Of a stretch of 13,355 nucleotides of DNA, positions 1-12,835 are shown in pieces. Position numbers and translations under genes: made by a program. Under the pieces are notes generated by a model. It worked only from the letters and a program-made list of their open reading frames with translations. It was not told where the DNA came from and made no database searches. How positions within the stretch are numbered: the stretch's first letter is position 1; the number at the start of each line of letters is the position of its first letter. Source of the stretch: a virus; UHGV virus genome UHGV-1987395; one strand, given 5' to 3'.

Positions 1-1
1 A

Positions 2-346
2 GATGAGCACGGTTATCCGATTCTGACAAGTGATGAGATGAACGCCAAATACAAAGGGATTCAGGCAACATTTAAGGATCGGAAGAGCATTAAACTCTCT
101 GAATTGCGAGATGCATTTTACGGGCCGGAGGTGATGGATAAAATTAAAGGCACCGTTGAGGGTAGAATCTGGAAAGAAGATGATTATTGGCATTTAACAG
201 AACAGGCCCTTAAGGTGGCTCAACATGTAGCTAAAAGAGGTAAAACAATTATCATCGATTATATTAGTCATGGCTATGATGCCCCGAAAGAAAGATTGTG
301 GAACAACTGCAAGCTTGTAAAAGGCGAATTAACCATTACAAAATAA
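2..346 (+). CDS. hypothetical protein, 5'-truncated at window edge
   Basis: Frame is open from position 2 to the TAA at 344-346; the first in-window ATG is at 38. No family recognised. Confidence 0.4.
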   Translation, partial: DEHGYPILTSDEMNAKYKGIQATFKDRKSIKLSELRDAFYGPEVMDKIKGTVEGRIWKEDDYWHLTEQALKVAQHVAKRGKTIIIDYISHGYDAPKERLWNNCKLVKGELTITK

Positions 347-386
347 ACATTCTTATTTTTTTACAGTATTCTAAAGGAAATTTAAA

Positions 387-533
387 ATGTATGGCGATTT
401 TGATTATTACCTGGAAAAGGAAAAATATTTTGAAGATGAACTATCACAACATTTTTCATATTGGGAAGAATATTGTGGTTGGTTAGCTGAAGATCCAGCA
501 GATGAAGAAAATGATTCTGACATCCCTTATTAA
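387..533 (+). CDS. small acidic hypothetical protein (48 aa)
   Basis: ATG at 387 preceded by AGGAAA 6 nt upstream; translation MYGDFDYYLEKEKYFEDELSQHFSYWEEYCGWLAEDPADEENDSDIPY is very D/E-rich. Below the 60-aa cut-off of the ORF track; preferred over the overlapping 298..486 ORF, which has no RBS. Confidence 0.35.
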   Translation: MYGDFDYYLEKEKYFEDELSQHFSYWEEYCGWLAEDPADEENDSDIPY

Positions 534-631
534 TTAATATCCCCTGTTATCCCCAAACAAACTAAATAAATAAACTAAGCACTAGAACTAGATTGATTGC
601 CCTGATCTTTTAAACGTTCGGAGAATTAATC

Positions 632-1117
632 ATGTTCAAATCTGATCTTTCTGATTCCCAATTTGAAAAACTGGTAGCACTGCAGAAATATCTCCCCAGT
701 GATGATCAACCAACACGACAGGCTAAACACTTATTAGTCGAGGGCTTTACCCCTGAATTCGTGGCGGAATATACAGGCGTTAAACTTGAGAAAGTCCAAA
801 AACTATATAATGAGTCCTGGAATCCACGGTGTCGAGTTCCCCTCAGTGTCTACAACGAAATAGATAGAGATAGAAATGTCTTCGAAGATCGCCGCCGCAA
901 ATCTCTTTTAATGTGGAATTGTGGGATGAATATTGAAGAGATAGCAAAAGAATTAAAAGTAACCTGCTTTCATGTCTGGGGCTTGTTGAGTGAAATCCTG
1001 CCACGTAAGGAGCTTAATCAACGTTTGCCTAAGCCCGGTAGTCGTGCTTATCGCGAATTTATATTCATCTACCGCCGCCATAGCAATAAAGTCCGGAAAG
1101 CAATGCAGCGCAAATAG
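632..1117 (+). CDS. putative HTH transcriptional activator (Mor/C-like or sigma region-4-like)
   Basis: GGAG 8 nt upstream of ATG; segment RRKSLLMWNCGMNIEEIAKELKVTCFHVWGLLSEI resembles, from memory, the C-terminal HTH of Mu Mor/C-family activators; basic C-terminus. Confidence 0.4.
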   Translation: MFKSDLSDSQFEKLVALQKYLPSDDQPTRQAKHLLVEGFTPEFVAEYTGVKLEKVQKLYNESWNPRCRVPLSVYNEIDRDRNVFEDRRRKSLLMWNCGMNIEEIAKELKVTCFHVWGLLSEILPRKELNQRLPKPGSRAYREFIFIYRRHSNKVRKAMQRK

Positions 1118-1205
1118 CTTATAGCCTTCACATATGCCGCAAGTTATTGATTCTGCCGTCCGGTAAATATGCCGGATGGCTCATATAAATTTTAAGGAAT
1201 TCCAA

Positions 1206-1649
1206 ATGTCTCAAATCGCTAAATTATTATCCCAGGTTATCAAAGCTATCGACGCTGAAGATTCAAAAGTTCGCCAGGATCTTTTAGATGGCAAGTTTAC
1301 CAACACCCTGGCATTTACCCGTGACAAAGAGCACTTCTTAAAACACAGACACCACGCTTTTGCTGAATGCAAGTCCGCTAATGGTGATGTTTTCTATGTC
1401 GATTTGGTGGTTATGGCATGTAGGCTGTGGATGATTCAGGACCTTATGCGCCAACACGGTGATGATCCTCTTATCAGCATGTGGAACAGCGCCCAGGATG
1501 GCTTTGTGATTGCTGCCTTATCCAAATCAATGATTGAGGCAGAAGGGGCAAGCCTTCAGAACATGGCAGATCTCTTTGAAATAAGCGTAGGAATGATGCA
1601 GACCATGCTCCAAGCTGTCAAACCTCTCAAACTGGTTAATCTTGATTAA
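1206..1649 (+). CDS. hypothetical protein
   Basis: ORF 1176..1649 in the track; ATG at 1206 has AAGGA 8 nt upstream, whereas ATG at 1176 has no clear SD. No family recognised. Confidence 0.45.
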   Translation: MSQIAKLLSQVIKAIDAEDSKVRQDLLDGKFTNTLAFTRDKEHFLKHRHHAFAECKSANGDVFYVDLVVMACRLWMIQDLMRQHGDDPLISMWNSAQDGFVIAALSKSMIEAEGASLQNMADLFEISVGMMQTMLQAVKPLKLVNLD

Positions 1650-1703
1650 GATATTGATAAATAAGCACTCCCCATTTTTTTGGGGGTGCATCAATGAGAG
1701 GAT

Positions 1704-2093
1704 ATGCCTATGAATATTGAAGAAATGATAGTTGAATTCGAAGAGGGTGATTTCCTGGAAGAAGGGGAGTTTAAATACTCCCGTTTTAAACAGGCGTTAT
1801 TTAGCAGCGATGATAAACCCCACGTTAGTGATCTTAATGATGATGATTTATGTCGCCTGGTGTGCACCCGCTTATATGAAGATGGAAAGTATACAGGCCA
1901 AAACTTTCCAAATCTCTATTTCAAAGCACAAACATTTGAGGAAGGGCAAAGAGTGAAAAACCTGGTCGATCAAATGCTGTCAGCCGGATATTTGCATAAA
2001 GAATTATTAAATCCTAAAGCTGAAAGCAAGCGCCATTATATTTTTGTGTGGTCTGTGGGGGATAAGTGCCCACTGAAGCGTAAAGGTAAATGA
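1704..2093 (+). CDS. hypothetical acidic protein; possible tail assembly chaperone
   Basis: GAGAGGA SD upstream of ATG; acidic N-terminus; lies two genes upstream of the tape measure gene, the usual position of chaperones. Call is positional only. Confidence 0.4.
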   Translation: MPMNIEEMIVEFEEGDFLEEGEFKYSRFKQALFSSDDKPHVSDLNDDDLCRLVCTRLYEDGKYTGQNFPNLYFKAQTFEEGQRVKNLVDQMLSAGYLHKELLNPKAESKRHYIFVWSVGDKCPLKRKGK

Positions 2094-2094
2094 T

Positions 2095-2280
2095 ATGAAT
2101 ACCTACGAAAAGATTTATCAAAAATTAAAAAGTGATAACAATGCTCCCGTCATCAAGGGCGGGGCTTCTTCCTCTGGTGACCTCTCAATCGAAGAGCTTG
2201 CGGAGAAATATAATATTGATAAAGAGGCCCTGAAAAGGGCTATTTCATTATCAAAATCTTTAAGACAGGGCGAGGTGTAA
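2095..2280 (+). CDS. hypothetical small protein (61 aa)
   Basis: ATG 1 nt after the stop of the upstream ORF (TGAtATG), suggesting translational coupling; ends 3 nt before the tape measure start. Confidence 0.35.
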   Translation: MNTYEKIYQKLKSDNNAPVIKGGASSSGDLSIEELAEKYNIDKEALKRAISLSKSLRQGEV

Positions 2281-2283
2281 GAG

Positions 2284-4404
2284 ATGGCAATGAAGGAAGT
2301 AGCCAAGCTAACAAACGTTATTTACTGGGATTCTGATAAATCCTCCTGGCGAAAAGAAGTTAAACGGCTTGAGGATTATAAAAAATCCTGGAAGAAAGCT
2401 ACCGACGATATAGCTAAAGCGGATTTTAAATCGAATCAGGCTGTGCTCAGAACACAAAGAACACGCGCTAAGGTGGAAGAGCAGATTGCCAGAGCTCAGA
2501 GGAAACAACAGGAAGCACAGAAGAAACAACGTGCTCAGGCTGTCAGCCGTCTGACCGGGGGCAATAATCCGGAGCTCTCCTCTATGCGCAAGTTCTATCA
2601 GCAGCAAGCCAGAGAGGCCGCCAGACAACAAAAACTGTTAGATCGTAGTGTTGGAGATGTTCAGCACAGAAAAGCACGTGTAGGGGCCAACAGTGCACGA
2701 ATCAGCAGTATGTTTGATGGCTCCCTGGTTGCTCAGTTCCAAAGCAGAATCCAGAGAGTTAATGCTGATTATGCTAAAGGGGCTATCAACCTGCAGACCT
2801 ATAATCAGAGGATGGCCCGACTCAGATCTGAAATGAAGATGGCAACAGCTGAAGCCGGAAAATTCCAGAGCAGACTAGATAAACTGGCATCAGGTGCCAG
2901 CAAGGTGCATGACAACCTGGGCAAAATCAACTCCACGCTGGGCAAGATAGCCATTGGCCTTACTGCCGCTGGCTGGGGTGTTCAGCGTGCTGTTAGTGGT
3001 GCTATGGGTAGCCTTGCAGATCGCAACAGTGCCTACTTCGGTTTGATGGCACAGAACAAGGATGATAAAGCCAAGACTGATCAGCAGATGGCTTTTATCA
3101 AGAACACAGCCTACACCTATGGGATGGATGAGCGGGAGATGCAAGGGGGCTACATGCGCTTTGCTGCAGCTACCCCCACCATGAAGGAATCTGATAAGCA
3201 GGCTCTCTTTGAGGCTATGGCTATTAAAGGCCGCTCAGTGGGTGCTACTGGCGAGCAACAGAACAGGGCGCTTGTTGCGGTCCAACAAATGGCTTCAAAG
3301 GGAAAAGTTATGGCGGAAGAGCTGCGGGGCCAACTGTCAGAAGCCTTTGCAGGCTCACAACAGGACTTCCAACAGGCCGCTATTGATGCCGGAATCATCA
3401 AAAATACCCAGGAATTCGATAAAGCCCTTAAAGATGGCAAAATCACCCTGGACAAACTTCTTCCCTCTCTGGTGAAAATCTGGGGTGCAGCAAAAGAAAC
3501 TAAAGCTTTTGCTGAATCCATGAAACAGCCAGAAGTAGCAATGCAGCGCATGAAAAACAGCTTTAACGAGCTGGCGATTCAGTTTATGGGTGTTGTGGAT
3601 CCTGCAGATGGCGTTATTAGCTTATCTGAATCTCTAATCTCCATCTTCGAAGACCTCACCACTGATATGGACGGCAGCGGGAGCGCGGCAAAACAGTTTG
3701 GTGAGGCAGTCGGTGCTGCCATGCGGGAGATCATGTATTGGGTAGGCTTCGCTAAGGGATATATTGAGGTCAAGGCTAAAGAGTTCGGCATGACCGGATC
3801 AGAGGTTGGCGAGCTTATCGGGAAACTGGTAGTCGGCTTAGCTGGTCTGAAAGTTATTACCACACTGCTTTCCCCTCTGACCGGATTTGTTTCACTTGTC
3901 ACTCAGCTGATAGCCTTGTTAGGTAAAATCCCTGGTATGAGCAAGCTTCTGGCTTCTGCCTCAGGTGGAACGGCAACAGGAGCAGCGGTCATCAGTGCAG
4001 GATCTAACGCTGAAAGAAGCTTCATTGATGGCAAGACGCAGGAAATGAGTAAGGAGAACTCAAAACAGGGTGCTTTGTTTGAGCTGGGAAGATTTGTCAG
4101 CAATGCTGGCGCACTGTTCACACCTGGCGGCGATACTGGTCCTTTGTTCGATCAGGTCAGAGGCTGGTTTAATAAAGGGCCAACATTGACAGTAGACACT
4201 GGCATCAGACCAACACCGACGGGTGGCATGGCTATCCAGAATGGTGGATATCAACCAGTCCAAGTAAATGTAGCCCCACAAGGTGAGATTTCCGGCAAAT
4301 GGGAGATAACCATCGATGAGGGGGGAATTGCCAGGGTAATTCAGAAGGAAGTCAGCGATCAGTTGGATTGGAAAGCCACACAGGAATCTAACCAGCTTTT
4401 CTAA
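2284..4404 (+). CDS. phage tail tape measure protein
   Basis: 706 aa; N-terminal Q/R/K/A-rich predicted coiled coil; central region (NKDDKAKTDQQMAFIKNTAYTYGMDEREMQGGYMRFAAATPTMKESDKQALFEAMAIKGRSVGATGEQQNRALVAVQQMASKG...) resembles the conserved tape-measure core domain; Gly-rich hydrophobic segment near the C-terminus. Confidence 0.7.
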   Translation: MAMKEVAKLTNVIYWDSDKSSWRKEVKRLEDYKKSWKKATDDIAKADFKSNQAVLRTQRTRAKVEEQIARAQRKQQEAQKKQRAQAVSRLTGGNNPELSSMRKFYQQQAREAARQQKLLDRSVGDVQHRKARVGANSARISSMFDGSLVAQFQSRIQRVNADYAKGAINLQTYNQRMARLRSEMKMATAEAGKFQSRLDKLASGASKVHDNLGKINSTLGKIAIGLTAAGWGVQRAVSGAMGSLADRNSAYFGLMAQNKDDKAKTDQQMAFIKNTAYTYGMDEREMQGGYMRFAAATPTMKESDKQALFEAMAIKGRSVGATGEQQNRALVAVQQMASKGKVMAEELRGQLSEAFAGSQQDFQQAAIDAGIIKNTQEFDKALKDGKITLDKLLPSLVKIWGAAKETKAFAESMKQPEVAMQRMKNSFNELAIQFMGVVDPADGVISLSESLISIFEDLTTDMDGSGSAAKQFGEAVGAAMREIMYWVGFAKGYIEVKAKEFGMTGSEVGELIGKLVVGLAGLKVITTLLSPLTGFVSLVTQLIALLGKIPGMSKLLASASGGTATGAAVISAGSNAERSFIDGKTQEMSKENSKQGALFELGRFVSNAGALFTPGGDTGPLFDQVRGWFNKGPTLTVDTGIRPTPTGGMAIQNGGYQPVQVNVAPQGEISGKWEITIDEGGIARVIQKEVSDQLDWKATQESNQLF

Positions 4405-4504
4405 TGTCCACTCTGTGGATTTGAGTTCTACTCAAACCTGCATAGCAGGCACTGATATTGTGATCAAAATCAATAAGTTAGCCTGACCGGGTAAACTCCA
4501 GGCA

Positions 4505-4537
4505 AGAAAAAAGCCCCTAAGTGTTAACAAAGGGGCT
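4505..4537 (-). terminator. candidate intrinsic terminator, minus strand
   Basis: 7-bp stem AGCCCCT (4512-4518) / AGGGGCT (4531-4537) with a 12-nt loop, followed on the minus strand by TTTTTT (plus A-run 4505-4511). Confidence 0.45.
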
Positions 4538-4957
4538 CTTCTCCGGTATCCTTTTGATGCGGGGCGAACCTGCTAACAAAAATCAACCTCTCGCGAGACT
4601 AATGTTAGCAGGTTGCCGGAAGGTAAGTCAACTCCGGTCTATAAACCTTAAAGCGACTATAAAATCGCCCCGCCAATTGTGATGATCCGACCTTTGAGGC
4701 GGGTCCGGTGCCCAGGGGGGTGCAGTGATGCACAAACCAGGCAACGATAAACAGGCTAACAGTGATAGCGGCGCTCAATCAGCGCACTAAATCCTAACCA
4801 GTCCGGGAAAGAGGCTGGCTCTATCGACCGCTCATGCACGGGACAATGCATACCTGATAAAGGATTCTCACAAGGGACCAATCGCGAGAAAAGAAGAGGA
4901 AAGGGGCTGATTTGTGGTGTATCACTACGGCCTCAAAAGACCTTCTATTGTCTTTTT

Positions 4958-5416
4958 TCAACCTCTCCCCACATTTGACCAGTATTTGATTGCACCGATC
5001 AAATCATCATAGTGGCGCATTGCATCATTGAAGCCTTTATAGCTTGCCCATTGTGGGGAAACCTTGTTATTGCTGAATTGCCCACTAATCAGGATAGTCT
5101 CCAGAATGTCGGCGTATCGCTTGCCAATTCGCTTTCTGACGGCCTCAGAGCTTCCACCCTTTACGATTGCATTAATCAGGGCTTTTGTGTGTCTCAGGCT
5201 CTCATAGAGCATTGCAGCGTGGGCAGATTCCATAAAGGAGCGCTTAGGCAGATCACCCCACCCCTCAGAGTGGATAGCTGCCAGTGTGGCGTAATTCAGG
5301 CCGCTATAGTGCTTTCCGTCATCCCAGCCAACCGCTACACCTTCCATCTGTGAGAGCTCTTTATGCAGCTTATCCATCATGCGCTTGTCTATGGTGCAAC
5401 GGACTTTCGGACTCAT
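4958..5416 (-). CDS. putative virion morphogenesis / head-tail joining protein
   Basis: 152 aa; ATGA start-stop overlap with the upstream gene; segment LAAIHSEGWGDLPKRSFMESA resembles, from memory, the motif of HK97 gp10-like head-tail joining proteins. Weak. Confidence 0.35.
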   Translation of the reverse strand: MSPKVRCTIDKRMMDKLHKELSQMEGVAVGWDDGKHYSGLNYATLAAIHSEGWGDLPKRSFMESAHAAMLYESLRHTKALINAIVKGGSSEAVRKRIGKRYADILETILISGQFSNNKVSPQWASYKGFNDAMRHYDDLIGAIKYWSNVGRG

Positions 5417-6216
5417 TTGTTGATCTCCGTGATGTCATCGAGCAACATGTTGGCCTTATCAATCATCGTTTCGTGGAACTCATTCGACACAACAGACTTA
5501 TCACCTGCGGCAATCTTTCCCGCTGCCTCTCCCTGTGCATATTCCCCGCGATGCTTAGCCCTGGTAGATTTCGTAGCAGCGTTGCCAGCGTTGCTACCCT
5601 CTTTAGCACTGTTAACAGCACCCTTTTGCTGTGTTTTATTCACCTTCTTACTGTTAGTGAAAACTCCGGCATTTTCGACCATCTTCACCTTGAAGGTGCG
5701 GAATTCTTCAAAGGTGCAATCAATAGTGATGCAGTCACCAGAGGAAGAGCTACGCTTAACTTCACATTTCGTCATGATGAAGTTCTCAAGGAGTCCGGCA
5801 TCTTCACTCACCAGGCTGACCAGCTGGCGCTTGTCTCTCATTTCCATAAGTGCCTGAACAGCGGCAGCAGGGCGCATAGATTCACGGGGATTATCTGGAT
5901 CAGTGTTCCGGTCGATGTAGTTCTCTTTCCGGATGATATAAGGGGAAGAGGTAATAATACCCGTAAAGCTGACAGATTTATCTTTAATGACGGCATGGTC
6001 TGACATGGTGGTGCCATCCTCGACCGCATAGCTCGATTTCTCAACAGGGAACGAATAGCTGACATCAGAGATAGAGTCAAAGAAGATAGCCACATTATCG
6101 GTATAGTTGAAGCCATCCATTATATTTTTGTTTTGTGAATATCCCCCACACATAACAGTGAATGCAGGAGATCTCGACTCAGCTTGTTTTGCAGCTGTCA
6201 GAGCATCACTAGCCAT
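5413..6216 (-). CDS. hypothetical protein, probable virion protein by context
   Basis: ORF 5413..6225 in the track; ATG at 6216 has GGAGG 10 nt upstream, while the ATG at 6225 sits 1 nt from the SD. In the capsid operon; no family recognised. Confidence 0.45.
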   Translation of the reverse strand: MASDALTAAKQAESRSPAFTVMCGGYSQNKNIMDGFNYTDNVAIFFDSISDVSYSFPVEKSSYAVEDGTTMSDHAVIKDKSVSFTGIITSSPYIIRKENYIDRNTDPDNPRESMRPAAAVQALMEMRDKRQLVSLVSEDAGLLENFIMTKCEVKRSSSSGDCITIDCTFEEFRTFKVKMVENAGVFTNSKKVNKTQQKGAVNSAKEGSNAGNAATKSTRAKHRGEYAQGEAAGKIAAGDKSVVSNEFHETMIDKANMLLDDITEINK

Positions 6217-6321
6217 ATTAAACATGCCTCCAAAATGAATCTTTTCGTTGCCCTGCTTAAAATCTGCAGAAAATACAGGGCAGTTATTCGTTAGAATCGC
6301 TTATAGCTCTTCCCGAGAGCG

Positions 6322-6573
6322 TTATTTTGCAAAACGATTATGGGCATTCAGGGCTTTTTTGCGGTCCTGGGCTTGTTTGCGTGCAATAAAATGTTCGAAA
6401 GTCTCGGCCCAGGTGCATTTATTATATTCACGGTATTTATGCATAGCCTGGCGGCTAACGTCATAGCAGGCGGCAAATGTGGAGATACGCAGGAATTCCG
6501 GCAGATCCTCGTCATCGATATGGATAATATCAAAAGGCACGTCGTCACGGTCGCCGTATAAAACAATTTTCAT
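6322..6573 (-). CDS. hypothetical small protein (83 aa)
   Basis: ATG at 6573 with GAGGTG 6 nt upstream; the 6582 start in the track is GTG. Lies just downstream of the post-capsid terminator hairpin. Confidence 0.4.
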   Translation of the reverse strand: MKIVLYGDRDDVPFDIIHIDDEDLPEFLRISTFAACYDVSRQAMHKYREYNKCTWAETFEHFIARKQAQDRKKALNAHNRFAK

Positions 6574-6605
6574 AAAATACACCTCAAAAACTTAAGACGG
6601 GGATA

Positions 6606-6670
6606 ACAAAAAAGGGAAGAGGGAAAGACCTATCCCCGATCTCTCACCTCTTCCCTTTGCTTTTATTTGG
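6606..6670. terminator. bidirectional intrinsic terminator/attenuator between capsid gene and downstream gene
   Basis: 9-bp stem GGGAAGAGG (6614-6622) / CCTCTTCCC (6647-6655); flanked by an A-run 6608-6613 (a T-run on the minus strand) and a T-rich tract 6656-6668 on the plus strand. Confidence 0.55.
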
Positions 6671-6686
6671 CCTTCGAAGAAGGACC

Positions 6687-7730
6687 TTATTTAGCCTTGG
6701 CTTTTGCCAGAGCAGCGGCGGCGGAGTTTTTAACACTCACTTTAACCACAACTTCGGGCATCATGTTCATGAAAGCATAAGAGGATTCAACGAAGATTTC
6801 TCGTTTGCCTCTGGACTCTTCCATATACATGAAAGCTTCACGTGCAGCGCCGTTTGCAAGCTTCAGGTTGCGAGCGCAAGGGCCGAAAAATTGAGTATAA
6901 ACGCCCACCATATCGCCTAACGCATGCGGCTGGAACTGTGGGACCAGATAAGCAGTATTCTCTGGCAGACTATCCATTTGCACCACACGCAGAGCTAAGC
7001 CCGGAATGCGGAAGGTCGGGAAGCCCGGCAGAATATCCTCAGGGAACATCAGACCTTTGTCGGTAATATTCTGATTGCCGAACAACAGCACTTTACGGAG
7101 CAGTTCATCAGTCTGAATAGCGGCGAACACCTCAGCACGGCAGAACAGGGTGAAACCACGCAGAGCGCGAACGACACCACGCTGTTTAACCTTGCTCAGT
7201 GCAACCAGGTCCTGCAGTTGTTTGAGAATATCTTGAGCTAGATCCATTTCAGAGGTGGACTGTTCCACGCCCAGCAGTTCGCACACATTCAGCTCTTTAC
7301 CCTTGGTGAGGATAATTTTGTTCTCAAAGAGAGCAAGCTGGCGTGCTTCTTCGTGGGTCTGGCGTAAGCCTTCGCCCAGTTGAATAACACGACGAGCGGT
7401 TACAGACTCTAAATTCTCTTCGGAATCTTTGCCAGGAACACGAATACCCTGCCAGTCAGAAGGATAAATAGCACTTGATGCGGCAGTGAACGCCATATCA
7501 CCCGTGCCCGTTTCACGCTCATCTGCGGTAATGGTCGCCATCTGTTCACCGTAGCGCGGATACTGACCGAAAGCGGTTTGTTTCACCTGGCGAACTTTGT
7601 CATATTCAAATTTAAAGGTATTGCACAGAGCAGTAGTGTTGAAGATATCCATTGCTGAAATAATCTGGTTATCCAGCGGGATGTCTTTAATCAAGCCACA
7701 CAGATCGCGGACTTCGAATTCTTTTTTCAT
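6687..7730 (-). CDS. phage major capsid protein (E-family-like)
   Basis: 347 aa from ATG 7730 with AAGGAGG 6 nt upstream (the 7736 start in the track is TTG); size and position directly after a decoration-like gene match the usual decoration + E-family capsid pairing; Ala/Lys-rich C-terminal tail. Confidence 0.6.
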   Translation of the reverse strand: MKKEFEVRDLCGLIKDIPLDNQIISAMDIFNTTALCNTFKFEYDKVRQVKQTAFGQYPRYGEQMATITADERETGTGDMAFTAASSAIYPSDWQGIRVPGKDSEENLESVTARRVIQLGEGLRQTHEEARQLALFENKIILTKGKELNVCELLGVEQSTSEMDLAQDILKQLQDLVALSKVKQRGVVRALRGFTLFCRAEVFAAIQTDELLRKVLLFGNQNITDKGLMFPEDILPGFPTFRIPGLALRVVQMDSLPENTAYLVPQFQPHALGDMVGVYTQFFGPCARNLKLANGAAREAFMYMEESRGKREIFVESSYAFMNMMPEVVVKVSVKNSAAAALAKAKAK

Positions 7731-7741
7731 CTCCAACCTCC

Positions 7742-8077
7742 TTATTGTGCAATTCGCAAATCGCCATTGCTGGCAGCGATAACAGCGGCTAAGCCTTCTT
7801 TATCCACGTAGGCCGGATTGATGTAGCAACCTTTGTTGGCAACAACGATAAAAGCATCACCAACCTCAGCACGTTCTACAACCAGCAGCGGAGTTTTACC
7901 GGTGTGCGTTGCTTTAACGAAGGTCTCAACCTCGCCAGCCTCAGTCACCACAACAACAGTGCCAGCCGGAATCTCAGCCTTAACTTTGTTTTTAACTTCA
8001 ACGTCGCGAATACTAAATTGCTCATCTGCGGCGTATGAAATGATGTGTCCGCGTGTGCGGATAGTCATATCTCTCAT
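7742..8077 (-). CDS. putative head decoration protein (DUF2190-like)
   Basis: 111 aa; AGGTGA 4 nt upstream of ATG; Val/Gly/Ala-rich beta-type sequence; sits directly upstream of the capsid gene, with its stop overlapping the capsid SD. Confidence 0.5.
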   Translation of the reverse strand: MRDMTIRTRGHIISYAADEQFSIRDVEVKNKVKAEIPAGTVVVVTEAGEVETFVKATHTGKTPLLVVERAEVGDAFIVVANKGCYINPAYVDKEGLAAVIAASNGDLRIAQ

Positions 8078-8567
8078 TTGATCACCTGCGATTTAAATTA
8101 ACTCCCCTCAAAGAGTTCCGGTATAACCTCTCAAACCACGACAGGCTCGGGCCGAAAAGTTATGCCGGAAATCTAAAGGGAAATTGATACAAGGAGAGGG
8201 AGATAGCCCCGCACCGTAGCCAAGCGGGGGCTATTCCACATGGGGAAACCGACAACAGTCGGATGATAGTTCACAGTATGGTTACGGTTACTAGAGAGCA
8301 CTATCACGAAAGGCACTCCCCCGAATCAGTTCAGGCTGCGGTCACATCAGCGGGGAAATACCTTTCGGGATAGCTACCCACACAGAAAACCCGCAAAAGA
8401 AAACTGTGTGGATAACTAGCCCAATAGGAGAATTAATCGACCACTCAACGATGATCAGGGTAGTGTTATTTATAAGGCGGCACCGCTACCTGGTCGCCTT
8501 TACTTTGGAGGAAAATACGGCAAATCAAGATCTTCTCAAATGATATTGATTCCATACTATACTGTAT

Positions 8568-8596
8568 ATTATATCAGTATTTACTCACATTGTCAA
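8568..8596 (-). promoter_or_regulatory. consensus sigma70 promoter reading leftward toward the capsid operon
   Basis: On the minus strand: TTGACA (plus 8596-8591), 17-nt spacer, TATAAT (plus 8573-8568). Perfect match at both hexamers with optimal spacing. Confidence 0.6.
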
Positions 8597-8750
8597 CACC
8601 TTGATTATATAAATTCTAATAATTAGCGTAGTAACGGTATTTTCAGACCTCTATCAATCCCATCAATACGTCACCCCCACCCTTTAGATGCATACATCCG
8701 ACCTACTTTGTAGGCTTGGCGTACTGCCAAGGTCGCAGCTATGCGACTCC

Positions 8751-8783
8751 TATCTATCACCACTTTATAAAGCTTGATAGATA
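8751..8783. promoter_or_regulatory. dyad-symmetric operator-like site
   Basis: TATCTATCA (8751-8759) and TGATAGATA (8775-8783) are perfect inverted repeats, concentric with an inner perfect palindrome CTTTATAAAG (8763-8772); overlaps a candidate -35 TTGATA at 8774-8779. Confidence 0.4.
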
Positions 8784-8926
8784 TCTTTTGATCAATATCA
8801 ATGTTTTCCAGAGATTTACCCGGCTATAGTTCGAATCAAGGAAGGGGAGCATTGATAGAGACACCCAAAGGGGTGACTGAAAGTCACCTGGCATAGCCAG
8901 TGAAAGCACCCAACCGAACAAACAAA

Positions 8927-8944
8927 TCAACTTCTCGCAAAAGG
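8927..8944 (+). promoter_or_regulatory. conserved 5'-UTR motif, copy 1
   Basis: TCAACTTCTCGCAAAAGG ends 8 nt before ATG 8953; near-identical to the copy at 9446-9464. Confidence 0.4.
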
Positions 8945-8952
8945 TGATAGTT

Positions 8953-9075
8953 ATGGGTATCAAGAACAGTGCCAGCGCATGGCAAAAGGCCAGGTTTCAT
9001 CACCCACACATGGTCAAGGCAATTGAGGTGGTTGGAGTTTTAGCCCTGATGTTAGCTCTGTGTGTGGAGGTGTGA
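8953..9075 (+). CDS. possible small membrane peptide (40 aa)
   Basis: AAGGTGA SD; translation MGIKNSASAWQKARFHHPHMVKAIEVVGVLALMLALCVEV has a C-terminal hydrophobic helix; preceded by the conserved TCAACTTCTCGCAAA motif. Below the track cut-off. Confidence 0.25.
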   Translation: MGIKNSASAWQKARFHHPHMVKAIEVVGVLALMLALCVEV

Positions 9076-9076
9076 G

Positions 9077-9157
9077 ATGGGTAAAGGAGGCAAAGAATTT
9101 TTAATAGGTCTGGCAGTCTTAGATTTTGTATTAATCATCATTGAGCGGAGTTTATGA
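9077..9157 (+). CDS. possible small membrane peptide (26 aa)
   Basis: GGAGGTG SD 4 nt upstream; translation MGKGGKEFLIGLAVLDFVLIIIERSL; its stop overlaps the next start as ATGA. Confidence 0.2.
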   Translation: MGKGGKEFLIGLAVLDFVLIIIERSL

Positions 9158-9414
9158 CGGGAACTAAAGATATTAAGAGACTGAGGGAAGAGCTGATAGC
9201 TGAAATTAAAGCTAAGGCAAAGCAAATGGAGATAGCCGCACAAATGGATGTAGCGGAACAGATGTACAAGATGGTTGAGGAGGGAACGCCACGACAGGTT
9301 ATAGCAAAAACCTTCGGTGTGGGGATCGCCACCGTGCACAGAAGGCTGAAAGCCTATGCCGACTACCACAATATCGAGAGAAAGGAGGATGGGAGATTTA
9401 AGAAGAATAAATAG
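9154..9414 (+). CDS. small DNA-binding protein with resolvase/invertase-type HTH
   Basis: 86 aa; charged helical N-terminus; C-terminal GTPRQVIAKTFGVGIATVHRRLK resembles, from memory, the Hin/Gin C-terminal HTH (GHPRQQLAIIFGIGVSTLYRY); no recombinase catalytic domain. Confidence 0.5.
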   Translation: MTGTKDIKRLREELIAEIKAKAKQMEIAAQMDVAEQMYKMVEEGTPRQVIAKTFGVGIATVHRRLKAYADYHNIERKEDGRFKKNK

Positions 9415-9445
9415 TGTGAACAGTCCAATAGGTTATTAACTAAAT

Positions 9446-9464
9446 TCAACTTCTCGCAAAGGGG
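9446..9464 (+). promoter_or_regulatory. conserved 5'-UTR motif, copy 2
   Basis: TCAACTTCTCGCAAAGGGG ends 7 nt before ATG 9472; same motif as 8927-8944. Confidence 0.4.
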
Positions 9465-9471
9465 TACCACT

Positions 9472-10059
9472 ATGAACATTAAAACTATCATTGCAGCCAT
9501 CACCATTGCCTTTAGTGCCAACACTGCAGCTATTGATGTTAATTTATTTCAGAAGATGACTTGCGAAGATAAATTAGTTGCCATGGATAAGGGGCTAGAA
9601 GCCACGCATAATGGGGAACAGTTTCATTTCTCCTTGAAGAATCTTATCTTGCCCCTGGATTCTGCCGCACAGGTATATGCAACATTGGGTAAATTTGAGA
9701 AGCCGGAAATTGACCTGCAGGGCGTGAGAGCGAAGATCACCAAAAGAAATGAAAGCATTTGTGATATAGCGGTTACGGCCCTTATGACAGATGATGAAAA
9801 AACGATTATAGCTACATGCAAAGATAGCAACGACAACGAACGATTCTTTAAGATCACCCACAACAGGCCCGTTTCTTTCTACTCTAATGCCACAATGGGC
9901 GCGGGTATGCAGTGGCTGAAGAGAGCTAAAGTAACTGAGGTTAATGCTGATGACGATTTATCCTATGAATACGGTTTTATTTCCAATTATATGGCGTGGC
10001 ACCTGAAAAAATGCGGCATCAATGGTCAGGCATACGACAATGGATTTTGGTTTTTCTAA
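9472..10059 (+). CDS. secreted/periplasmic protein of unknown function
   Basis: N-terminal signal peptide MNIKTIIAAITIAFSANTAA with an AxA-like cleavage site; AGGGG SD; followed by an intrinsic terminator at 10081-10106; ends in aromatic FWFF. Confidence 0.55.
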   Translation: MNIKTIIAAITIAFSANTAAIDVNLFQKMTCEDKLVAMDKGLEATHNGEQFHFSLKNLILPLDSAAQVYATLGKFEKPEIDLQGVRAKITKRNESICDIAVTALMTDDEKTIIATCKDSNDNERFFKITHNRPVSFYSNATMGAGMQWLKRAKVTEVNADDDLSYEYGFISNYMAWHLKKCGINGQAYDNGFWFF

Positions 10060-10080
10060 CCTATTAAGTTAATCCCACCT

Positions 10081-10106
10081 GGGGGCCATCACGGCCCCTT
10101 TTTATT
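10081..10106 (+). terminator. intrinsic terminator after the secreted-protein gene
   Basis: GGGGCC (10082-10087), loop ATCAC, GGCCCC (10093-10098), then TTTTTATTT. Confidence 0.65.
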
Positions 10107-10108
10107 TA

Positions 10109-10164
10109 TCCCCTATTTAACCCCTATTTAATGGGTATTTAATGCCTATTTATTGATTTAATGG
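10109..10164. repeat. five tandem copies of an 11-bp unit (consensus about CCCTATTTAA)
   Basis: TCCCCTATTTAA / CCCCTATTTAA / TGGGTATTTAA / TGCCTATTTAT / TGATTTAATGG in direct succession immediately after the terminator; 11-bp period is about one helical turn. Confidence 0.55.
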
Positions 10165-11566
10165 TTTTGGGCATTGTTGACAGTGTAAGAGAGAGGATGT
10201 AACCCTTTTTTGTAATACTAATAAAATCAATAGCTTAGCTCAATTGGCCTTTTCTCTGTTTTTGTCAAATTTAACATACCCTAAAAAACTGCAAAATCTG
10301 GCTGCAAGATTATCTGCAGCTGGATTTCTTACACCTCATTTTGTGGTATCACCCTGACTAGTTTGTGCATAAAATGAACAGTTTTTAACATTTCCTCTTC
10401 ACCTGGTAACCACACAAAAAGCTAAAAACGAGGCACAGATAATCTTAGAGGCCTGTTTTCTTGTTATCACTCTAGAAACGTCGTAGAGATGATTTTAATG
10501 AAAGATGACCTACCCTATTACACCCCTATTTTTTGTTATCACAATTGCATCCTGTGCGGTGTATGGCTATGTGCTGAAAGCGGTCTTATGTGTGGGTGTC
10601 AGAAATATCCATTAGCGGTATTAATACCCGTCGGAGATTCGTCTGAGGTGCCAGGCAGGCGCTCCCCCACCTCCCTTTTTTCTTCTAACAATTCTCAAAT
10701 ATCACACCACTGCCGACCACGTTACTACTCTGTTAATTCTTAAGCTTTGCTGTATGTTGTGCACATTATTTATTCAGGTGGCTGTACGTAAATTCTGTGC
10801 CCACTGATCATGATTTTTAAATCAGATTTTGTAGTTCGCTTTATTAGTGTAGATAAGATCTATTATGTTAAATGCAATTTTCCCAACCCTTCAAATCAAT
10901 GACTTACATGTAAGTATGCACTAACACCCCACACAGCACATTAGACGTATAGATGGCTATATCCCACATTTTTGATTGTTTTGTAGTCATTCCCCTGATC
11001 ATTTAACCAGTATAGTTTGTTCTCTGTAGACCACAAAATCGGAATTTACATCTGATTAACATAATCTGTTAGCATGATCACTATTACCCACACAACAATA
11101 ACCCCATGCAAGCCTCTTTAGGCAATTTATCGGCGTGTTGGTGTGAACAGTCTTTCATGTTCTTTATGAATTCATGACTGCAAGGAATGTATTCATTGTC
11201 CTGTGTGGGGGAAGGATGGACTGCCCCAGGGGCCATAGTTATGACACCCGGTCAACATAACTGTCGATAAAATCAACGGGTGTTGGTATGCATATTTCCC
11301 ACACATGAGAGAAAATCAAAGCAAAGAGAGAGGAGAGAGGTTTGCTAGTCAAAATAGGTCAATTGACGGCTAATACAGAGTAAAAAATCAGATGCAATCA
11401 CTCCCCCACCTGTTGGGATTTCCTACAACCCCTTTCAGTCATACTCAGGCACCACACCCCGGTAAATATTACCGCACTAACCTGTAAAGAATTTTCACAC
11501 CTGTGTGTTTATACAGTCATACTCTCCTGTTTTGCAGTCATTGCACCCATGATACACAGCCCCTAA

Positions 11567-11676
11567 CCTGTCAAAATATTTTACTACTTAGCCACTATAG
11601 CTATGCATACCTGTAAAATATTTTTACTACTACCTGTCAAAATACTTTACTACTACCTGTAAAAATATTTGACACT
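11567..11676. repeat. iteron-like 22-bp direct repeats (four copies, plus a degenerate copy at 11481-11500)
   Basis: CCTGTCAAAATATTTTACTACT (11567-11588), CCTGTAAAATATTTTTACTACT (11610-11631), CCTGTCAAAATACTTTACTACT (11633-11654), CCTGTAAAAATATTTGACACT (11656-11676); the last three are spaced 23 bp start to start. Confidence 0.6.
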
Positions 11677-11789
11677 AATAGATAAAGTAATAGACCACAC
11701 AAGATCCCCCCTAACCCCCCAGGGGGAATGGGGAGGGATCAGAGAGTGGGGAAGGTTTTCTAAGGGAAAAGCTTAACCCACAAATGAAA

Positions 11790-11818
11790 GCCTAAAGAGC
11801 ATTAGCGACTCTTTAGGC
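11790..11818. repeat. perfect 10-bp inverted repeat (hairpin or operator)
   Basis: GCCTAAAGAG (11790-11799), 9-nt spacer, CTCTTTAGGC (11809-11818); the half-site CTCTTTAGGCAAT recurs at 11114-11126. Confidence 0.5.
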
Positions 11819-12258
11819 AATATGTGTGTGGGTCACTCTGTGACTTTAGCTATACAGCTAAACCGACTACGTCGGCCTGTGTGTGGGGGTGACAATGTAT
11901 TCCATACATGACACGTCACCCAATTGTGTGTGGTCCGGCGAATGCGTCAGCATGAGGCCCACATGTGGACCGCTGCCGAAAGCTTGCCAGCGCCGGAAGG
12001 AGGCAGCAAAGAGTCTCCCGCGCGGGTGCACGCACACACATACAAAGGATACACTCATAAATCGAAAATAAGCCACCTAAATGGCCTTCTGGCTGCATTA
12101 ACTAGTGTGAGTAGTGCAATTGCATTACCTGACCTCTAAATCGCGTTAGAATCGATTTTAGAGCGCTTAAGGCAAAAAGTGCCCTCCCTTGTGGGCTTGC
12201 TTGTGTCTGCTGTGCAGGCTATGGCACCTATAGCACACCTAAATGATAATAATTCTCA

Positions 12259-12277
12259 TTGACAATTGGTTGACAAT
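12259..12277. promoter_or_regulatory. tandem TTGACAAT boxes (candidate operator or overlapping -35 elements)
   Basis: TTGACAAT at 12259-12266 and 12270-12277, 11 bp apart; a third copy at 12449-12456 forms the -35 of the downstream promoter. Confidence 0.4.
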
Positions 12278-12448
12278 GTGATAAGATTATAAATAGGGGG
12301 AGAAACAGATCCGGAGGTCAATGTGGAAATTACTGATGCAATAGCGATCATCAACCTGGCTGTACTGTGGTGCGGTGTTGCCTACATAGCCGGAGTAACT
12401 GCAATCGACAATCTTGAAGAAAAAATGATAGATAAATACAAAAAGATT

Positions 12449-12477
12449 GTTGACAATTTGACGAATGTCTGATAAAA
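12449..12477 (+). promoter_or_regulatory. sigma70-like promoter upstream of the 71-aa gene
   Basis: TTGACA (12449-12454), 17-nt spacer, TAAAAT (12472-12477). Confidence 0.5.
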
Positions 12478-12605
12478 TATAAAGCATAGGGTAATTCTCA
12501 TCATAGTGAATTTCCTTTAGTAGACTGGCGGGGGCTTGTCTTAAGTTCCCGTTTCTTTTTAATCATATATCGCACAGGTTAGTGAGCTAACAGGAGGCTT
12601 ATACT

Positions 12606-12821
12606 ATGGCTAAAACCGGACCGATCAGCCAGTTGGTAAACTGGACTACTGACGAAATCGTCGAGAACGTACTTAAGGGGAACTTCCGCAAAACTTCCGT
12701 TTATGCATTCATTCGTAAACATAAAGGAGAATATCCACACATTGAAGAAGCAATTTTAAAACTAAATTGCATTCGCCTTGAGCGGGAACTGGCTAAATAC
12801 ACCAATAACATTAATAAATAA
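12606..12821 (+). CDS. hypothetical small protein (71 aa), possible DNA-binding regulator
   Basis: AGGAGG 8 nt upstream of ATG; lies about 130 nt downstream of a consensus-like promoter; no family recognised. Confidence 0.45.
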   Translation: MAKTGPISQLVNWTTDEIVENVLKGNFRKTSVYAFIRKHKGEYPHIEEAILKLNCIRLERELAKYTNNINK

Positions 12822-12835
12822 TTATGGGGGAATTA

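What the first reader, a model, noticed from the sequence alone, without database searches (positions are those of the whole stretch)
4405..4957. Structured 550-bp spacer between the convergent tail and capsid operons
The interval is more GC-rich than its neighbours and packed with stems: TTTGAGT/ACTCAAA (4419-4435), a minus-strand terminator (4505-4537), an 11-bp stem ACCTGCTAACA/TGTTAGCAGGT (4569-4613) enclosing a perfect palindrome TCTCGCGAGA, GTGCA/TGCAC, and GCGCT/AGCGC. The minus-strand terminator lies about 420 nt beyond the last capsid-operon stop, implying a long structured 3' UTR or an independent ncRNA. It could also be an attachment or packaging site.
Basis: seen in the sequence. 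Interest (0 to 1): 0.5.

Follow-up and report, generated by a model that had tools for sequence, protein, structure and literature searches.

The report
Conserved structured RNA gene on satellite-like plasmid
The "spacer" is a gene for a previously undescribed, about 440-base folded non-coding RNA that is the best-conserved DNA of a small phage-like E. coli plasmid, and one short stretch of it is complementary to the start regions of two of the plasmid's own genes, so it most likely acts as a regulatory antisense RNA.

Summary

The window is a complete ~13.3-kb circular E. coli "plasmid" carrying capsid and tail genes. Positions ~4953-4505 (minus strand) encode a ~440-nt non-coding RNA.

- **Conservation:** five diverged lineages of the element were found. 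The RNA is their best-conserved DNA (77% identity where the neighbouring protein is 50% identical).
- **Structure:** twelve helices are 93% paired across 17 sequences, against about 40% in slid controls. Sixteen pairs show compensatory changes.
- **Strand and coding:** G·U versus A·C counts identify the minus strand as the folded one. No ORF is conserved.
- **Known families:** no Rfam family matches.
- **Likely function:** a conserved 10-15-nt stretch near the 3' end (GCGAGAGGUUGA) is complementary to a motif that sits at -29 to -15 of two plus-strand genes in every relative. One encodes a tiny hydrophobic peptide; the other is a variable cargo gene.

My best reading is a trans-acting antisense regulator, comparable to phage immunity RNAs or type I antitoxins. 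I found no evidence for an att, cos or ori role. Transcription and regulation are untested.

The parts
4505..4953 (-). Gene for a conserved structured non-coding RNA (long form about 440-450 nt). The 5' limit is taken as the first conserved block, AGACAATAG (4953-4945). The 3' end is the U-tract of the terminator.
   Evidence: Best-conserved DNA between lineages. Twelve helices are 92.8% paired, with 16 covarying pairs. G·U 105 versus A·C 25 cells. No conserved ORF. No Rfam family.
4691..4939 (-). 5' domain closed by the long-range helix P1 (CUUUUGAGGC 4939-4930 with GCCUCAAAGG 4700-4691).
   Evidence: Types A and C have UUGAGGC/GCCUCAA. Type B has UUGAUGC/GCAUCAA, a compensatory G-C to U-A change.
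4865..4890 (-). Hairpin P2 (4890-4883 with 4872-4865), with the conserved loop UU(G/A)GUCCCUU.
   Evidence: helix 2: five pairs changed on both sides, though the alignment is uncertain here. The pattern scan also flags it as terminator-like.
4752..4856 (-). Multi-helix core closed by the invariant helix P3 (CAGGU 4856-4852 with GCCUG 4756-4752). It contains P3a (4851-4847/4838-4834), P4 (4825-4821/4768-4764), P4a (4819-4815/4801-4797, with invariant loop CUCUUUCCCGG) and P4b (4785-4781/4775-4771). It is flanked by the invariant blocks UUAUCAGGUA and GCCUGUUUAUC.
   Evidence: P4a reads CCAG/CUGG, CAAG/CUUG, CCUAU/AUAGG, CCUGU/ACAGG and CUUAU/AUAAG in different lineages. P4 and P4b each have pairs changed on both sides.
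4559..4673 (-). 3' domain closed by helix P5 (GCGGGGC 4673-4667 with GCCCCGC 4565-4559).
   Evidence: In type C the helix is GCUGAUA/UAUCAGC: four pairs changed on both sides and none broken.
4616..4637 (-). Hairpin P6 (CCGGA 4637-4633 with UCCGG 4620-4616). Its loop holds the invariant GUUGACUU. The same TTGACT (4631-4626) is the -35 of a promoter-like site, TTGACT-18-TAACAT (-10 at 4607-4602, preceded by TG).
   Evidence: Stems differ but pair in every lineage: CCGGA/UCCGG, CCGC/GCGG, CAGAAAGAGA/UUUCUCUCUG. The promoter-like site was found in the window and at the homologous place in L033 as TTGACT-16-TAGTAT, but not in L019.
4568..4613 (-). Hairpin P7 (11 bp) with a 24-nt loop that presents the conserved antisense 'seed' GCGAGAGGUUGAUUU. 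On the plus strand this reads AAATCAACCTCTCGC, 4580-4594.
   Evidence: Stem is CUGCUAACA/UGUUAGCAG in type A and GCUGUUAG/CUAACAGC in types C and D, with compensatory changes. The seed block is invariant in 17 sequences apart from one G/A position.
4505..4538 (-). Intrinsic terminator of the RNA: stem 4538-4531 with 4518-4511, U-tract 4510-4505. It probably also stops the convergent tape-measure transcript, less efficiently.
   Evidence: A stem and a U-tract on the RNA strand are kept in all lineages with different loop sequences. The weak Rfam ctRNA and leader hits come from the terminator alone.
8924..8938 (+). Proposed target site 1: AAAUCAACUUCUCGC, at -29 to -15 of the ATG of a 40-aa hydrophobic peptide ORF (8953-9075).
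   Evidence: The 12-mer TCAACYTCTCGC occurs 3 times on the plus strand, with 0 expected. The site is present in all relatives. Predicted duplex -23.4 kcal/mol.
9443..9457 (+). Proposed target site 2: AAUUCAACUUCUCGC, at the same distance (-29 to -15) from the ATG of the 195-aa gene 9472-10059. This gene has a signal-peptide-like N-terminus and is replaced by other genes in relatives.
   Evidence: The motif is kept in front of different downstream genes.

Best explanation
Window ~4953-4505 (minus strand) is a gene for a new, highly structured non-coding RNA of about 440 nt.

How it is made (inferred): it is transcribed as the 3' continuation of the capsid/tail operon, from a promoter of its own, or both. 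It ends at the intrinsic terminator at 4538-4505. A shorter form of about 95 nt may start at the conserved internal promoter-like site TTGACT-N16-18-TA..AT at 4631-4602.

How it is built (shown by comparative analysis): a 5' domain of about 250 nt is closed by a long-range helix. A 3' domain displays a conserved 10-15-nt sequence, GCGAGA(G/A)GUU(GA), in a hairpin loop or single-stranded next to the terminator.

What it does (inferred): this sequence is complementary to a motif just upstream of the Shine-Dalgarno sequences of two genes of one plus-strand operon about 4.3 kb away. The first encodes a tiny hydrophobic peptide and the last is a variable cargo gene. The most likely mechanism is base-pairing in trans that blocks translation initiation of these mRNAs, and perhaps destabilizes or prematurely terminates them. 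The RNA would then act as an immunity-like or antitoxin-like regulator of the plasmid-like, phage-related element.

What the large conserved 5' domain does is unknown.

Shown: conservation, RNA-type covariation, strand, absence of coding potential, complementarity and its conservation. Inferred: transcription, RNA ends, and the regulatory outcome.
For: 1. Real and non-random structure: fold z-scores of -4.1 and -4.6.
2. Conservation above that of neighbouring genes: L007's flanking protein is 50% identical, yet the spacer DNA aligns with long invariant blocks. Between the window and L031/L033 the RNA region is the strongest DNA match of the whole element (77% over 346 nt, E = 1e-60).
3. Covariation: on 17 distinct sequences from five lineages, 92.8% of cells pair, against 38-44% when partners are slid. 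There are 16 pairs and 41 cells with changes on both sides, against 3-7 pairs and 5-13 cells when slid. None of 500 shuffles reach these values. Helix P5 has four double changes.
4. Strand: 105 G·U cells against 25 A·C cells, and the U-tract is on the minus strand in all lineages.
5. Not coding: no ORF is conserved in position or frame, and 1-nt indels occur among close relatives.
6. Seed and targets:
   - TCAACYTCTCGC occurs three times on the plus strand with 0 expected.
   - Both other copies sit at -29 to -15 of start codons.
   - The sites are kept in every relative, even where the downstream gene differs.
   - At the one variable position only pairing-compatible combinations occur: G·U, G-C and A-U, never A×C.
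   - In types C and D, seed position 11 is A and target 2 has the matching U.
   - Predicted duplexes are -21 to -25 kcal/mol in 11 of the 13 elements with both parts available; L031 reaches only -14.9 and L033, whose contig is cut, shows only target 1.
7. The first target gene encodes a 40-aa (type A) or 20-aa (types C and D) hydrophobic peptide.
Against: - No expression data exist. Transcription, the RNA ends and any regulation are untested.
- The seed-target duplex energy is not unique in the window; chance duplexes of about -24 kcal/mol exist.
- Predicted seed accessibility is mixed, with P(unpaired) from 0.12 to 0.63.
- In types C and D only 10-11 bp can form. In L031 target 1 has lost its ORF and target 2 has an internal mismatch.
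- The shared motif could equally be a protein-binding site, and co-variation of three sites does not distinguish the two.
- A simple antisense RNA does not need a conserved 330-nt scaffold, so the main function may lie elsewhere.
- The promoter of the long form could not be identified.
- Covariation rests on only about five independent lineages, and the MAFFT alignment of type B is uncertain in the middle.
Confidence: 0.5

Rival explanations
1. It is a structured RNA that acts mainly through its large 5' domain: by binding or sequestering a protein or another RNA of the element, the host or a helper phage, or as a sensor that gates the 3' module. The complementarity to the two 5' UTRs would then be secondary or incidental.
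For: Blocks of 10-11 invariant nucleotides lie in loops and junctions of the 5' domain (UUAUCAGGUA, GCCUGUUUAUC, CUCUUUCCCGG, UURGUCCCUU) across lineages whose proteins are about 50% identical. The covariation is strongest in that domain. A split sense-like copy of the target motif in the 5' domain can pair with the seed in types A, C' and D. Seed accessibility is low in some lineages.
Against: No partner is identified. No Rfam family or known protein-binding RNA motif matches. The conserved loops have no complementary sites elsewhere in the window (for the GUUGACUU loop).
Confidence: 0.2
2. It is only a cis-acting structured 3' UTR of the capsid/tail operon (mRNA stabilizer plus terminator) with no function in trans.
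For: In type A the conserved region starts 5-8 nt after the stop codon of the last gene (4958) and shares its terminator. No convincing promoter for the long form was found.
Against: Sequence conservation is far higher than in the genes it would serve. In type B a 49-aa gene on the opposite strand and a terminator-like hairpin separate the RNA from the operon, yet the RNA is kept. The internal promoter-like site is conserved in types A, C and D. The seed-target match goes unexplained.
Confidence: 0.15
3. The three TCAACYTCTCGC copies are DNA operators for one of the element's helix-turn-helix proteins. The copy in the spacer would control the internal promoter, so the link between the spacer and the two genes would be a shared repressor and not RNA pairing.
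For: The spacer copy lies just downstream of the promoter-like -10. The element encodes several HTH proteins. In types C and D the targets keep AAUCAAC although the seed has diverged there.
Against: The motif is asymmetric and single-copy at each place. The two gene-proximal copies sit at a fixed distance from start codons, inside the presumed 5' UTRs, with no promoter-like context. A different repeated motif (TTGACAATGTGA type, 8557-8624 and 12242-12489) looks like the element's real operator set. This rival does not explain the RNA covariation.
Confidence: 0.1
4. It is a DNA site: a packaging (cos/pac) site, an attachment site, or a replication origin or primer-RNA locus.
For: The element lacks a recognizable terminase and must be packaged by something else if it is mobile.
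Against: There is no similarity to any phage and no integrase gene was recognized. A replication initiator (phrog_270, HTH_36) and 23-bp iterons lie elsewhere, at 12835-346 and 11566-11677. The RNA ends in a strong terminator, unlike a ColE1-type primer, and the Rfam RNAI and ctRNA models do not match above threshold. The compensatory changes and the G·U bias indicate a single-stranded RNA fold. The only phage-shared DNA is at 11963-12027.
Confidence: 0.05

Closest known systems
Phage and satellite immunity antisense RNAs: P1/P7 c4 RNA and P4 CI RNA (Rfam C4, RF01695) - from established knowledge
   Same: A non-coding RNA of a plasmid-capable phage or satellite uses a short exposed sequence that is complementary to two sites in one operon of the same element, next to ribosome-binding sites, to shut that operon down.
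   Different: c4 and CI are RNAs of about 70-80 nt, processed from the very transcript they control. Here the RNA is about 440 nt (or about 95 nt in the short form), lies 4.3 kb away on the other strand, and has no sequence or structure match to the C4 model.
Type I toxin-antitoxin systems with limited-complementarity antitoxins (tisB/istR-1, shoB/ohsC, zorO/orzO) - from established knowledge
   Same: A small hydrophobic peptide gene (40 or 20 aa) has a 5' UTR complementary over 10-15 nt to a terminator-ended small RNA. A plasmid context is one where post-segregational killing would be useful.
   Different: The RNA gene is not adjacent to or overlapping the peptide gene. There is a second target in front of an unrelated cargo gene. 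The RNA is much larger. The peptide matches no toxin family, its toxicity is untested, and one lineage (L031) keeps the RNA but has lost the peptide ORF. The Rfam ohsC hit is noise (E = 4).
3'-UTR-derived regulatory sRNAs (for example DapZ and MicL with internal promoters; CpxQ and SroC by processing) - from established knowledge
   Same: It lies directly downstream of the last gene of an operon and shares its terminator. The seed sits in the conserved 3' part, and an internal promoter-like site is present.
   Different: The conserved structured region upstream of the seed is much longer than in known examples. The element is extrachromosomal.
Large structured ncRNAs associated with phages (GOLLD, ROOL) - from established knowledge
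   Same: A several-hundred-nucleotide, strongly covarying RNA of unknown biochemical role, carried by a phage-related element.
   Different: No match to those Rfam models. It is smaller, has a very narrow distribution (E. coli-type plasmids and a few metagenome contigs), and has an evident antisense module.

Membership tests
Any Rfam 15 family | Covariance-model score at or above the family's gathering threshold | tested here: not met
   Whole window at E <= 1: only ctRNA_p42d, 23.6 bits against a threshold of 50, on the terminator. The RNA alone in three lineages at E <= 10: all hits far below threshold and driven by the terminator. No tRNA or tmRNA.
Rho-independent (intrinsic) terminator | G+C-rich stem-loop followed by a U-tract on the transcribed strand | tested here: met
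   GAGCCCCU...AGGGGCUU followed by UUUUUUCUU on the minus strand. Kept in all lineages with different loops.
Structured non-coding RNA gene (generic) | Helices maintained by compensatory substitutions across homologues | tested here: met
   92.8% paired; 16 pairs with changes on both sides, against 3-7 in slid controls; 0 of 500 shuffles reach this. P5 has four double changes.
Structured non-coding RNA gene (generic) | Absence of a conserved reading frame | tested here: met
   ORFs differ in frame, length and position between lineages. There are frameshifting indels among near-identical relatives.
Structured non-coding RNA gene (generic) | A stable transcript of the predicted strand and size | not testable with these tools
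   No transcriptome data are available. This needs a Northern blot, RNA-seq or RACE.
Trans-acting base-pairing sRNA / antisense regulator | Conserved seed complementary to target mRNAs at or near the translation start region | tested here: met
   Seed GCGAGA(G/A)GUU is invariant. Its complement lies at -29 to -15 of two start codons and is conserved in all lineages.
Trans-acting base-pairing sRNA / antisense regulator | Seed accessible (single-stranded) in the RNA | tested here: inconclusive
   In the comparative structure the seed lies in the 24-26-nt loop of P7 (types A, C and D) or is unpaired beside the terminator (type B). The partition function gives P(unpaired) from 0.12 to 0.63.
Trans-acting base-pairing sRNA / antisense regulator | Target expression changes when the seed is mutated and is restored by compensatory target mutations | not testable with these tools
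   Requires an experiment.
P1 c4 / P4 CI immunity RNA (Rfam C4) | Homology to the C4 model and location within the controlled transcript | tested here: not met
   No C4 hit. The RNA gene is 4.3 kb from its targets and on the opposite strand.
Type I toxin-antitoxin | Small hydrophobic toxic peptide whose mRNA is bound by the RNA antitoxin | tested here: inconclusive
   Hydrophobic peptides of 40 aa and 20 aa follow target 1, but they match no known toxin family and their toxicity is unknown.
Type I toxin-antitoxin | Antitoxin gene overlapping or adjacent to the toxin gene | tested here: not met
   The RNA is at 4505-4953 and the peptide ORF at 8953-9075.
ColE1-type primer RNA II / RNA I, or ctRNA copy control | RNA I or ctRNA homology; primer transcript running into the origin; no initiator protein needed | tested here: not met
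   No RNAI hit and only a sub-threshold ctRNA hit. The RNA ends at a terminator. An initiator protein and iterons lie elsewhere.
cos/pac or att site | Sequence shared with the helper phage or with an empty chromosomal site; an adjacent integrase or terminase | tested here: not met
   No phage match, even at E = 10. All E. coli matches are plasmids and none is chromosomal. No integrase or terminase was recognized.

The most novel reading that the evidence does not exclude
This is the founding member of a new class of large regulatory RNA, carried by plasmid-borne satellites of rV5-like (Vequintavirinae) phages. A conserved scaffold of about 330 nt senses or binds a factor from the helper phage, the host or the element. 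It thereby gates an antisense seed, possibly through the internal sense-like 'anti-seed' at 4915-4883. The seed in turn controls a toxic peptide and the cargo gene. The RNA would then be the element's switch between quiet plasmid maintenance and exploitation of a helper.
Probability: 0.15. Interest if true: 0.8.

Novelty: new variant of a known kind. Interest (0 to 1): 0.62.

Why it matters
This would add a new, well-supported structured RNA family to the few known from phage satellites and phage-plasmids. It would also show that RNA-based control like that of P1 and P4 exists in an unrelated and so far undescribed type of element: a 13-kb plasmid with its own capsid, tape-measure and baseplate genes related to those of rV5-like phages.

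The RNA is the element's most conserved feature, so it is probably central to its biology. It is also a handle for finding further members in sequence data.

The seed-target prediction can be tested directly with reporter fusions and compensatory mutations. The large conserved 5' domain poses an open question about what else such RNAs do.

Tried and rejected
Known RNA families
- Rfam on the whole window and on the RNA alone in three lineages gave nothing above threshold.
- No tRNA or tmRNA was found.

Similarity to phages
- blastn of the spacer against 50,697 phage records found nothing at 1e-5 and only noise at E = 10.

Search for more relatives
- The adjacent 152-aa protein, alone and as a profile, found nothing in the genome and viral collections. 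In metagenomes it found one new diverged lineage (L019, type B) plus near-identical relatives.
- DNA patterns in IMG/VR gave only chance 16-mer hits or nothing.
- The type B RNA is absent from PLSDB.

Alternatives considered
- Small-protein gene: rejected, because ORFs are not conserved and are frameshifted among close relatives.
- Replication origin or primer RNA: rejected, because the initiator and iterons are elsewhere.
- TTGACTT purely as a -35: it is also the loop of a covarying hairpin, and both readings remain possible.
- Uniqueness of the seed-target duplex by energy: not unique.
- Seed targets in 56 kb of phage rV5: none.

Technical and literature
- mafft-qinsi structural alignment was unavailable.
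- Literature searches for the sequence motifs and for plasmid-borne satellites found no description of this RNA or element.

Full report
**Context**

The 13,355-bp window matches seven RefSeq E. coli plasmids of 13.2-13.7 kb over 82-95% of its length, at 92-96% identity. One of these records is 39.6 kb long and holds three copies. There is no chromosomal match and no phage match.

The window is therefore a complete small circular element. Its plus-strand operon ends with a 706-aa tape measure protein (2284-4404). Its minus-strand operon encodes the following:
- a major capsid protein (6687-7736);
- a Dit-like baseplate protein (5413-6225);
- a tail-completion-like 152-aa protein (4958-5416).

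A replication-initiator-like protein (HTH_36, phrog_270) spans the window ends (12835-346). 23-bp iterons lie at 11566-11677. The finding concerns the 553 bp between the two convergent operons.

**Check of the observation**

The interval folds far better than shuffled sequence on both strands, with z = -4.1 and -4.6. The terminator hairpin at 4511-4538 is followed by a U-tract only on the minus strand. The claim of a higher G+C content than the neighbours is not supported.

**Relatives**

Close relatives were retrieved from the plasmid collections. More distant ones came from protein searches followed by contig look-ups:
- L007, whose flanking protein is 50% identical;
- L019, L026 and L027, 'type B';
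- L031, L033 and L034, found through the L007 capsid protein.

This gives about five lineages and 17 distinct sequences of the spacer.

The spacer is strikingly well conserved. L007 keeps long invariant DNA blocks although its neighbouring protein is only 50% identical. Between the window and L031 or L033 the spacer is the strongest nucleotide match of the whole element, at 77% over 346 nt with E = 1e-60. Type B is so diverged that blastn barely detects it, yet it keeps the same ordered blocks.

The about 100 nt between the tape-measure stop codon and the terminator (4405-4504) is variable. It is not part of the conserved unit.

**It is a structured RNA made from the minus strand**

I defined twelve helices on the window sequence and counted them on the 17-sequence alignment.

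| Measure | Observed | 3' partners slid 1-3 columns |
|---|---|---|
| Cells forming standard pairs | 92.8% | 38-44% |
| Pairs with changes on both sides | 16 | 3-7 |
| Cells with changes on both sides | 41 | 5-13 |

None of 500 column shuffles reaches the observed values.

Individual helices vary as follows:

| Helix | Variants seen |
|---|---|
| P5 | GCGGGGC/GCCCCGC in type A; GCUGAUA/UAUCAGC in types C and D (four double changes, none broken) |
| P4a | CCAG/CUGG, CAAG/CUUG, CCUAU/AUAGG, CCUGU/ACAGG, CUUAU/AUAAG, around the invariant loop CUCUUUCCCGG |
| P7 | CUGCUAACA/UGUUAGCAG; GCUGUUAG/CUAACAGC |
| P6 | CCGGA/UCCGG, CCGC/GCGG, CAGAAAGAGA/UUUCUCUCUG, around the invariant GUUGACUU |
| P1 (long-range) | UUGAGGC/GCCUCAA; UUGAUGC/GCAUCAA in type B |

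G·U pairs outnumber A·C oppositions 105 to 25, so the folded strand is the window's minus strand. This agrees with the terminator polarity.

No ORF is conserved in frame or position on either strand. Single-base indels occur among near-identical relatives.

No Rfam family reaches its threshold. The only hits come from the terminator.

**Anatomy**

In RNA sense, with window coordinates:
- First conserved block, AGACAATAG, at 4953-4945.
- A 5' domain closed by P1 (4939-4930 with 4700-4691).
- Inside that domain, hairpin P2 and a multi-helix core closed by the invariant helix P3 (4856-4852 with 4756-4752).
- A 3' domain closed by P5 (4673-4667 with 4565-4559), which contains P6 and P7.
- The terminator (4538-4505).

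Helix P5 encloses a promoter-like site, TTGACT-18-TAACAT (4631-4602). So a transcript starting upstream of that site must exist for P5 to form.

The promoter-like site is itself kept in types C and D as TTGACT-16-TAGTAT. That was the only site the scan found in the L033 spacer. It is weak in type B. A short RNA of about 95 nt that begins at the seed may therefore be made in addition to the long form. I could not identify the promoter of the long form.

In type A the RNA starts 5-8 nt after the stop codon of the last operon gene. In type B a 49-aa gene on the opposite strand and a terminator-like hairpin intervene. That argues for an independent promoter at least there.

**Function**

The most conserved element of the 3' domain is GCGAGA(G/A)GUU(GA).

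Its complement, TCAACYTCTCGC, occurs three times in the window, all on the plus strand, with none expected by chance. One copy is the RNA gene itself. The other two lie at 8927-8938 and 9446-9457.

Both of these sit at -29 to -15 of a start codon, directly 5' of the Shine-Dalgarno sequence:
- The first precedes a 40-aa hydrophobic peptide ORF (8953-9075).
- The second precedes the 195-aa gene at 9472.

Both sites are present in every relative that could be examined. This holds even though the second gene is replaced by unrelated genes in different relatives, and the first peptide is a 20-aa hydrophobic peptide in types C and D.

At the single variable seed position, only pairing-compatible combinations are seen: G·U, G-C and A-U. 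In types C and D a seed change (G to A at position 11) is matched by a U in target 2.

Predicted duplexes are -21 to -25 kcal/mol in 11 of the 13 elements where both parts are available; in L031 the duplex is -14.9 kcal/mol, and the cut L033 contig shows only target 1.

I therefore propose a trans-acting antisense RNA that blocks translation initiation of the first and last genes of that operon.

Several caveats apply:
- Duplexes of similar energy arise by chance elsewhere in the window.
- Predicted seed accessibility is mixed.
- L031 has degenerate targets.
- The motif could instead be a protein-binding site.
- Nothing here shows transcription.

The role of the large conserved 5' domain is unexplained. 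It contains a split, sense-like copy of the target motif (4915-4907 plus 4890-4883) that could pair with the seed in three lineages. This hints at autoinhibition, but it is not seen in all lineages.

**Alternatives rejected**

- *Attachment site:* the element is a plasmid, no integrase gene was recognized and there are no chromosomal copies.
- *Packaging site:* there is no similarity to any phage. The only phage-shared DNA is a 65-nt island at 11963-12027 that matches rV5-like phages.
- *Origin or primer RNA:* the initiator and iterons are elsewhere, and the RNA ends in a terminator.

**Comparison with known systems**

The logic resembles the c4 and CI immunity RNAs of P1 and P4, where one RNA acts on two sites in one operon. 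It also resembles type I antitoxins that pair with the 5' UTR of a small hydrophobic peptide gene. The gene position resembles that of 3'-UTR-derived sRNAs.

It is not a member of any of these families. There is no model match, the genomic arrangement differs, and the RNA is five to six times larger. I rate it a new variant of a known kind of regulator and a new RNA family.

The literature searches found no description of the RNA or of the element. A 2025 review notes that only one phage satellite is known to be a plasmid (PMC12282955).

Noticed in passing
window 1-13355 (whole): The window is a complete ~13.3-kb circular E. coli 'plasmid', typed non-mobilizable. It carries a capsid gene, a tape measure gene, a Dit-like gene and a tail-completion-like gene, but no recognizable terminase, portal or integrase gene. 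It looks like an undescribed plasmid-borne phage satellite. One RefSeq record (NZ_CP043822, 39,610 bp) holds three copies, which is either a true trimer or an assembly artefact.
   Followed up: partly
window 11963-12027: A second conserved non-coding island, 97% identical to the distant lineage L033 over 61 nt. It matches 141 phage records, nearly all rV5-like Vequintavirinae, at 83-87% over 65 nt, mostly in unannotated DNA upstream of the phage tRNA cluster. A stem changes from GCUGCC/GGCAGC to CCGAC/GUCGG between the element and rV5, so this may be another small structured RNA or a shared recognition site.
   Followed up: partly
window 5413-6225 (-) and 2284-4404 (+): The Dit-like protein is 49% identical to rV5 ORF48, and the tape measure protein is 26% identical to the adjacent rV5 ORF49. 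rV5-like myoviruses are therefore the likely helper or source of the tail genes. In rV5 the two genes are adjacent and co-oriented. Here they are convergent, with the RNA gene between them.
   Followed up: partly
window 8953-9153: Two tiny hydrophobic ORFs precede the HTH_7 gene at 9154-9414: a 40-aa ORF (MGIKNSASAWQKARFHHPHMVKAIEVVGVLALMLALCVEV) and a 26-aa ORF (MGKGGKEFLIGLAVLDFVLIIIERSL). They are not annotated in most records. In types C and D the first is a 20-aa peptide ending in CVEL. They may be toxin-like or leader peptides.
   Followed up: partly
window 9472-10059: The gene behind target site 2 is a swappable cargo position. Relatives carry different, unrelated genes of 162-225 aa there, behind the same conserved 5' UTR motif.
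   Followed up: partly
window 8557-8624 and 12242-12489: Inverted copies of a 40-nt AT-rich segment containing TTGACAATGTGA-type motifs lie upstream of the target operon and upstream of the replication genes. They look like shared promoter-operator regions (I1 and I2).
   Followed up: no
window 10060-12600: About 2.5 kb with almost no annotated genes in any RefSeq relative. It contains 11-bp repeats (10100-10152), 23-bp iterons (11566-11677) and the phage-shared island. It is probably the origin and control region, and may hold further RNAs.
   Followed up: no
L019:6475-6625 and L026:4560-4710: Type B relatives carry an extra 49-aa, very basic ORF (MKNANAIKRNNRKIHARKFLK...) on the opposite strand, between the tail-completion gene and the RNA gene. 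The complement of the RNA's first conserved block (AGACAA) serves as the -35 of its promoter-like site, TTGTCT-17-TATAAT.
   Followed up: no
window 4420-4436: The hairpin just after the tape-measure stop codon (TTTGAGT/ACTCAAA) is outside the conserved RNA. It is nevertheless kept as TTTAGCT/AGCTAAA in relative L003. It may be a 3' stabilizing hairpin of the tape-measure mRNA.
   Followed up: no
window 4915-4907 and 4890-4883 (-): The RNA's 5' domain contains ACAAAUCAG...UUCUCGCG, a split sense-like copy of the target motif. It can pair with the RNA's own seed at -15.8 to -20.6 kcal/mol, p about 0.01-0.02 against shuffles, in types A, C' and D. This is not so in L007 or type B.
   Followed up: partly
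window 4958-4969: A fourth near-copy of the motif (TCAACCTCTCCC, one mismatch) overlaps the stop codon of the 152-aa gene in type A only. It is probably coincidental.
   Followed up: no
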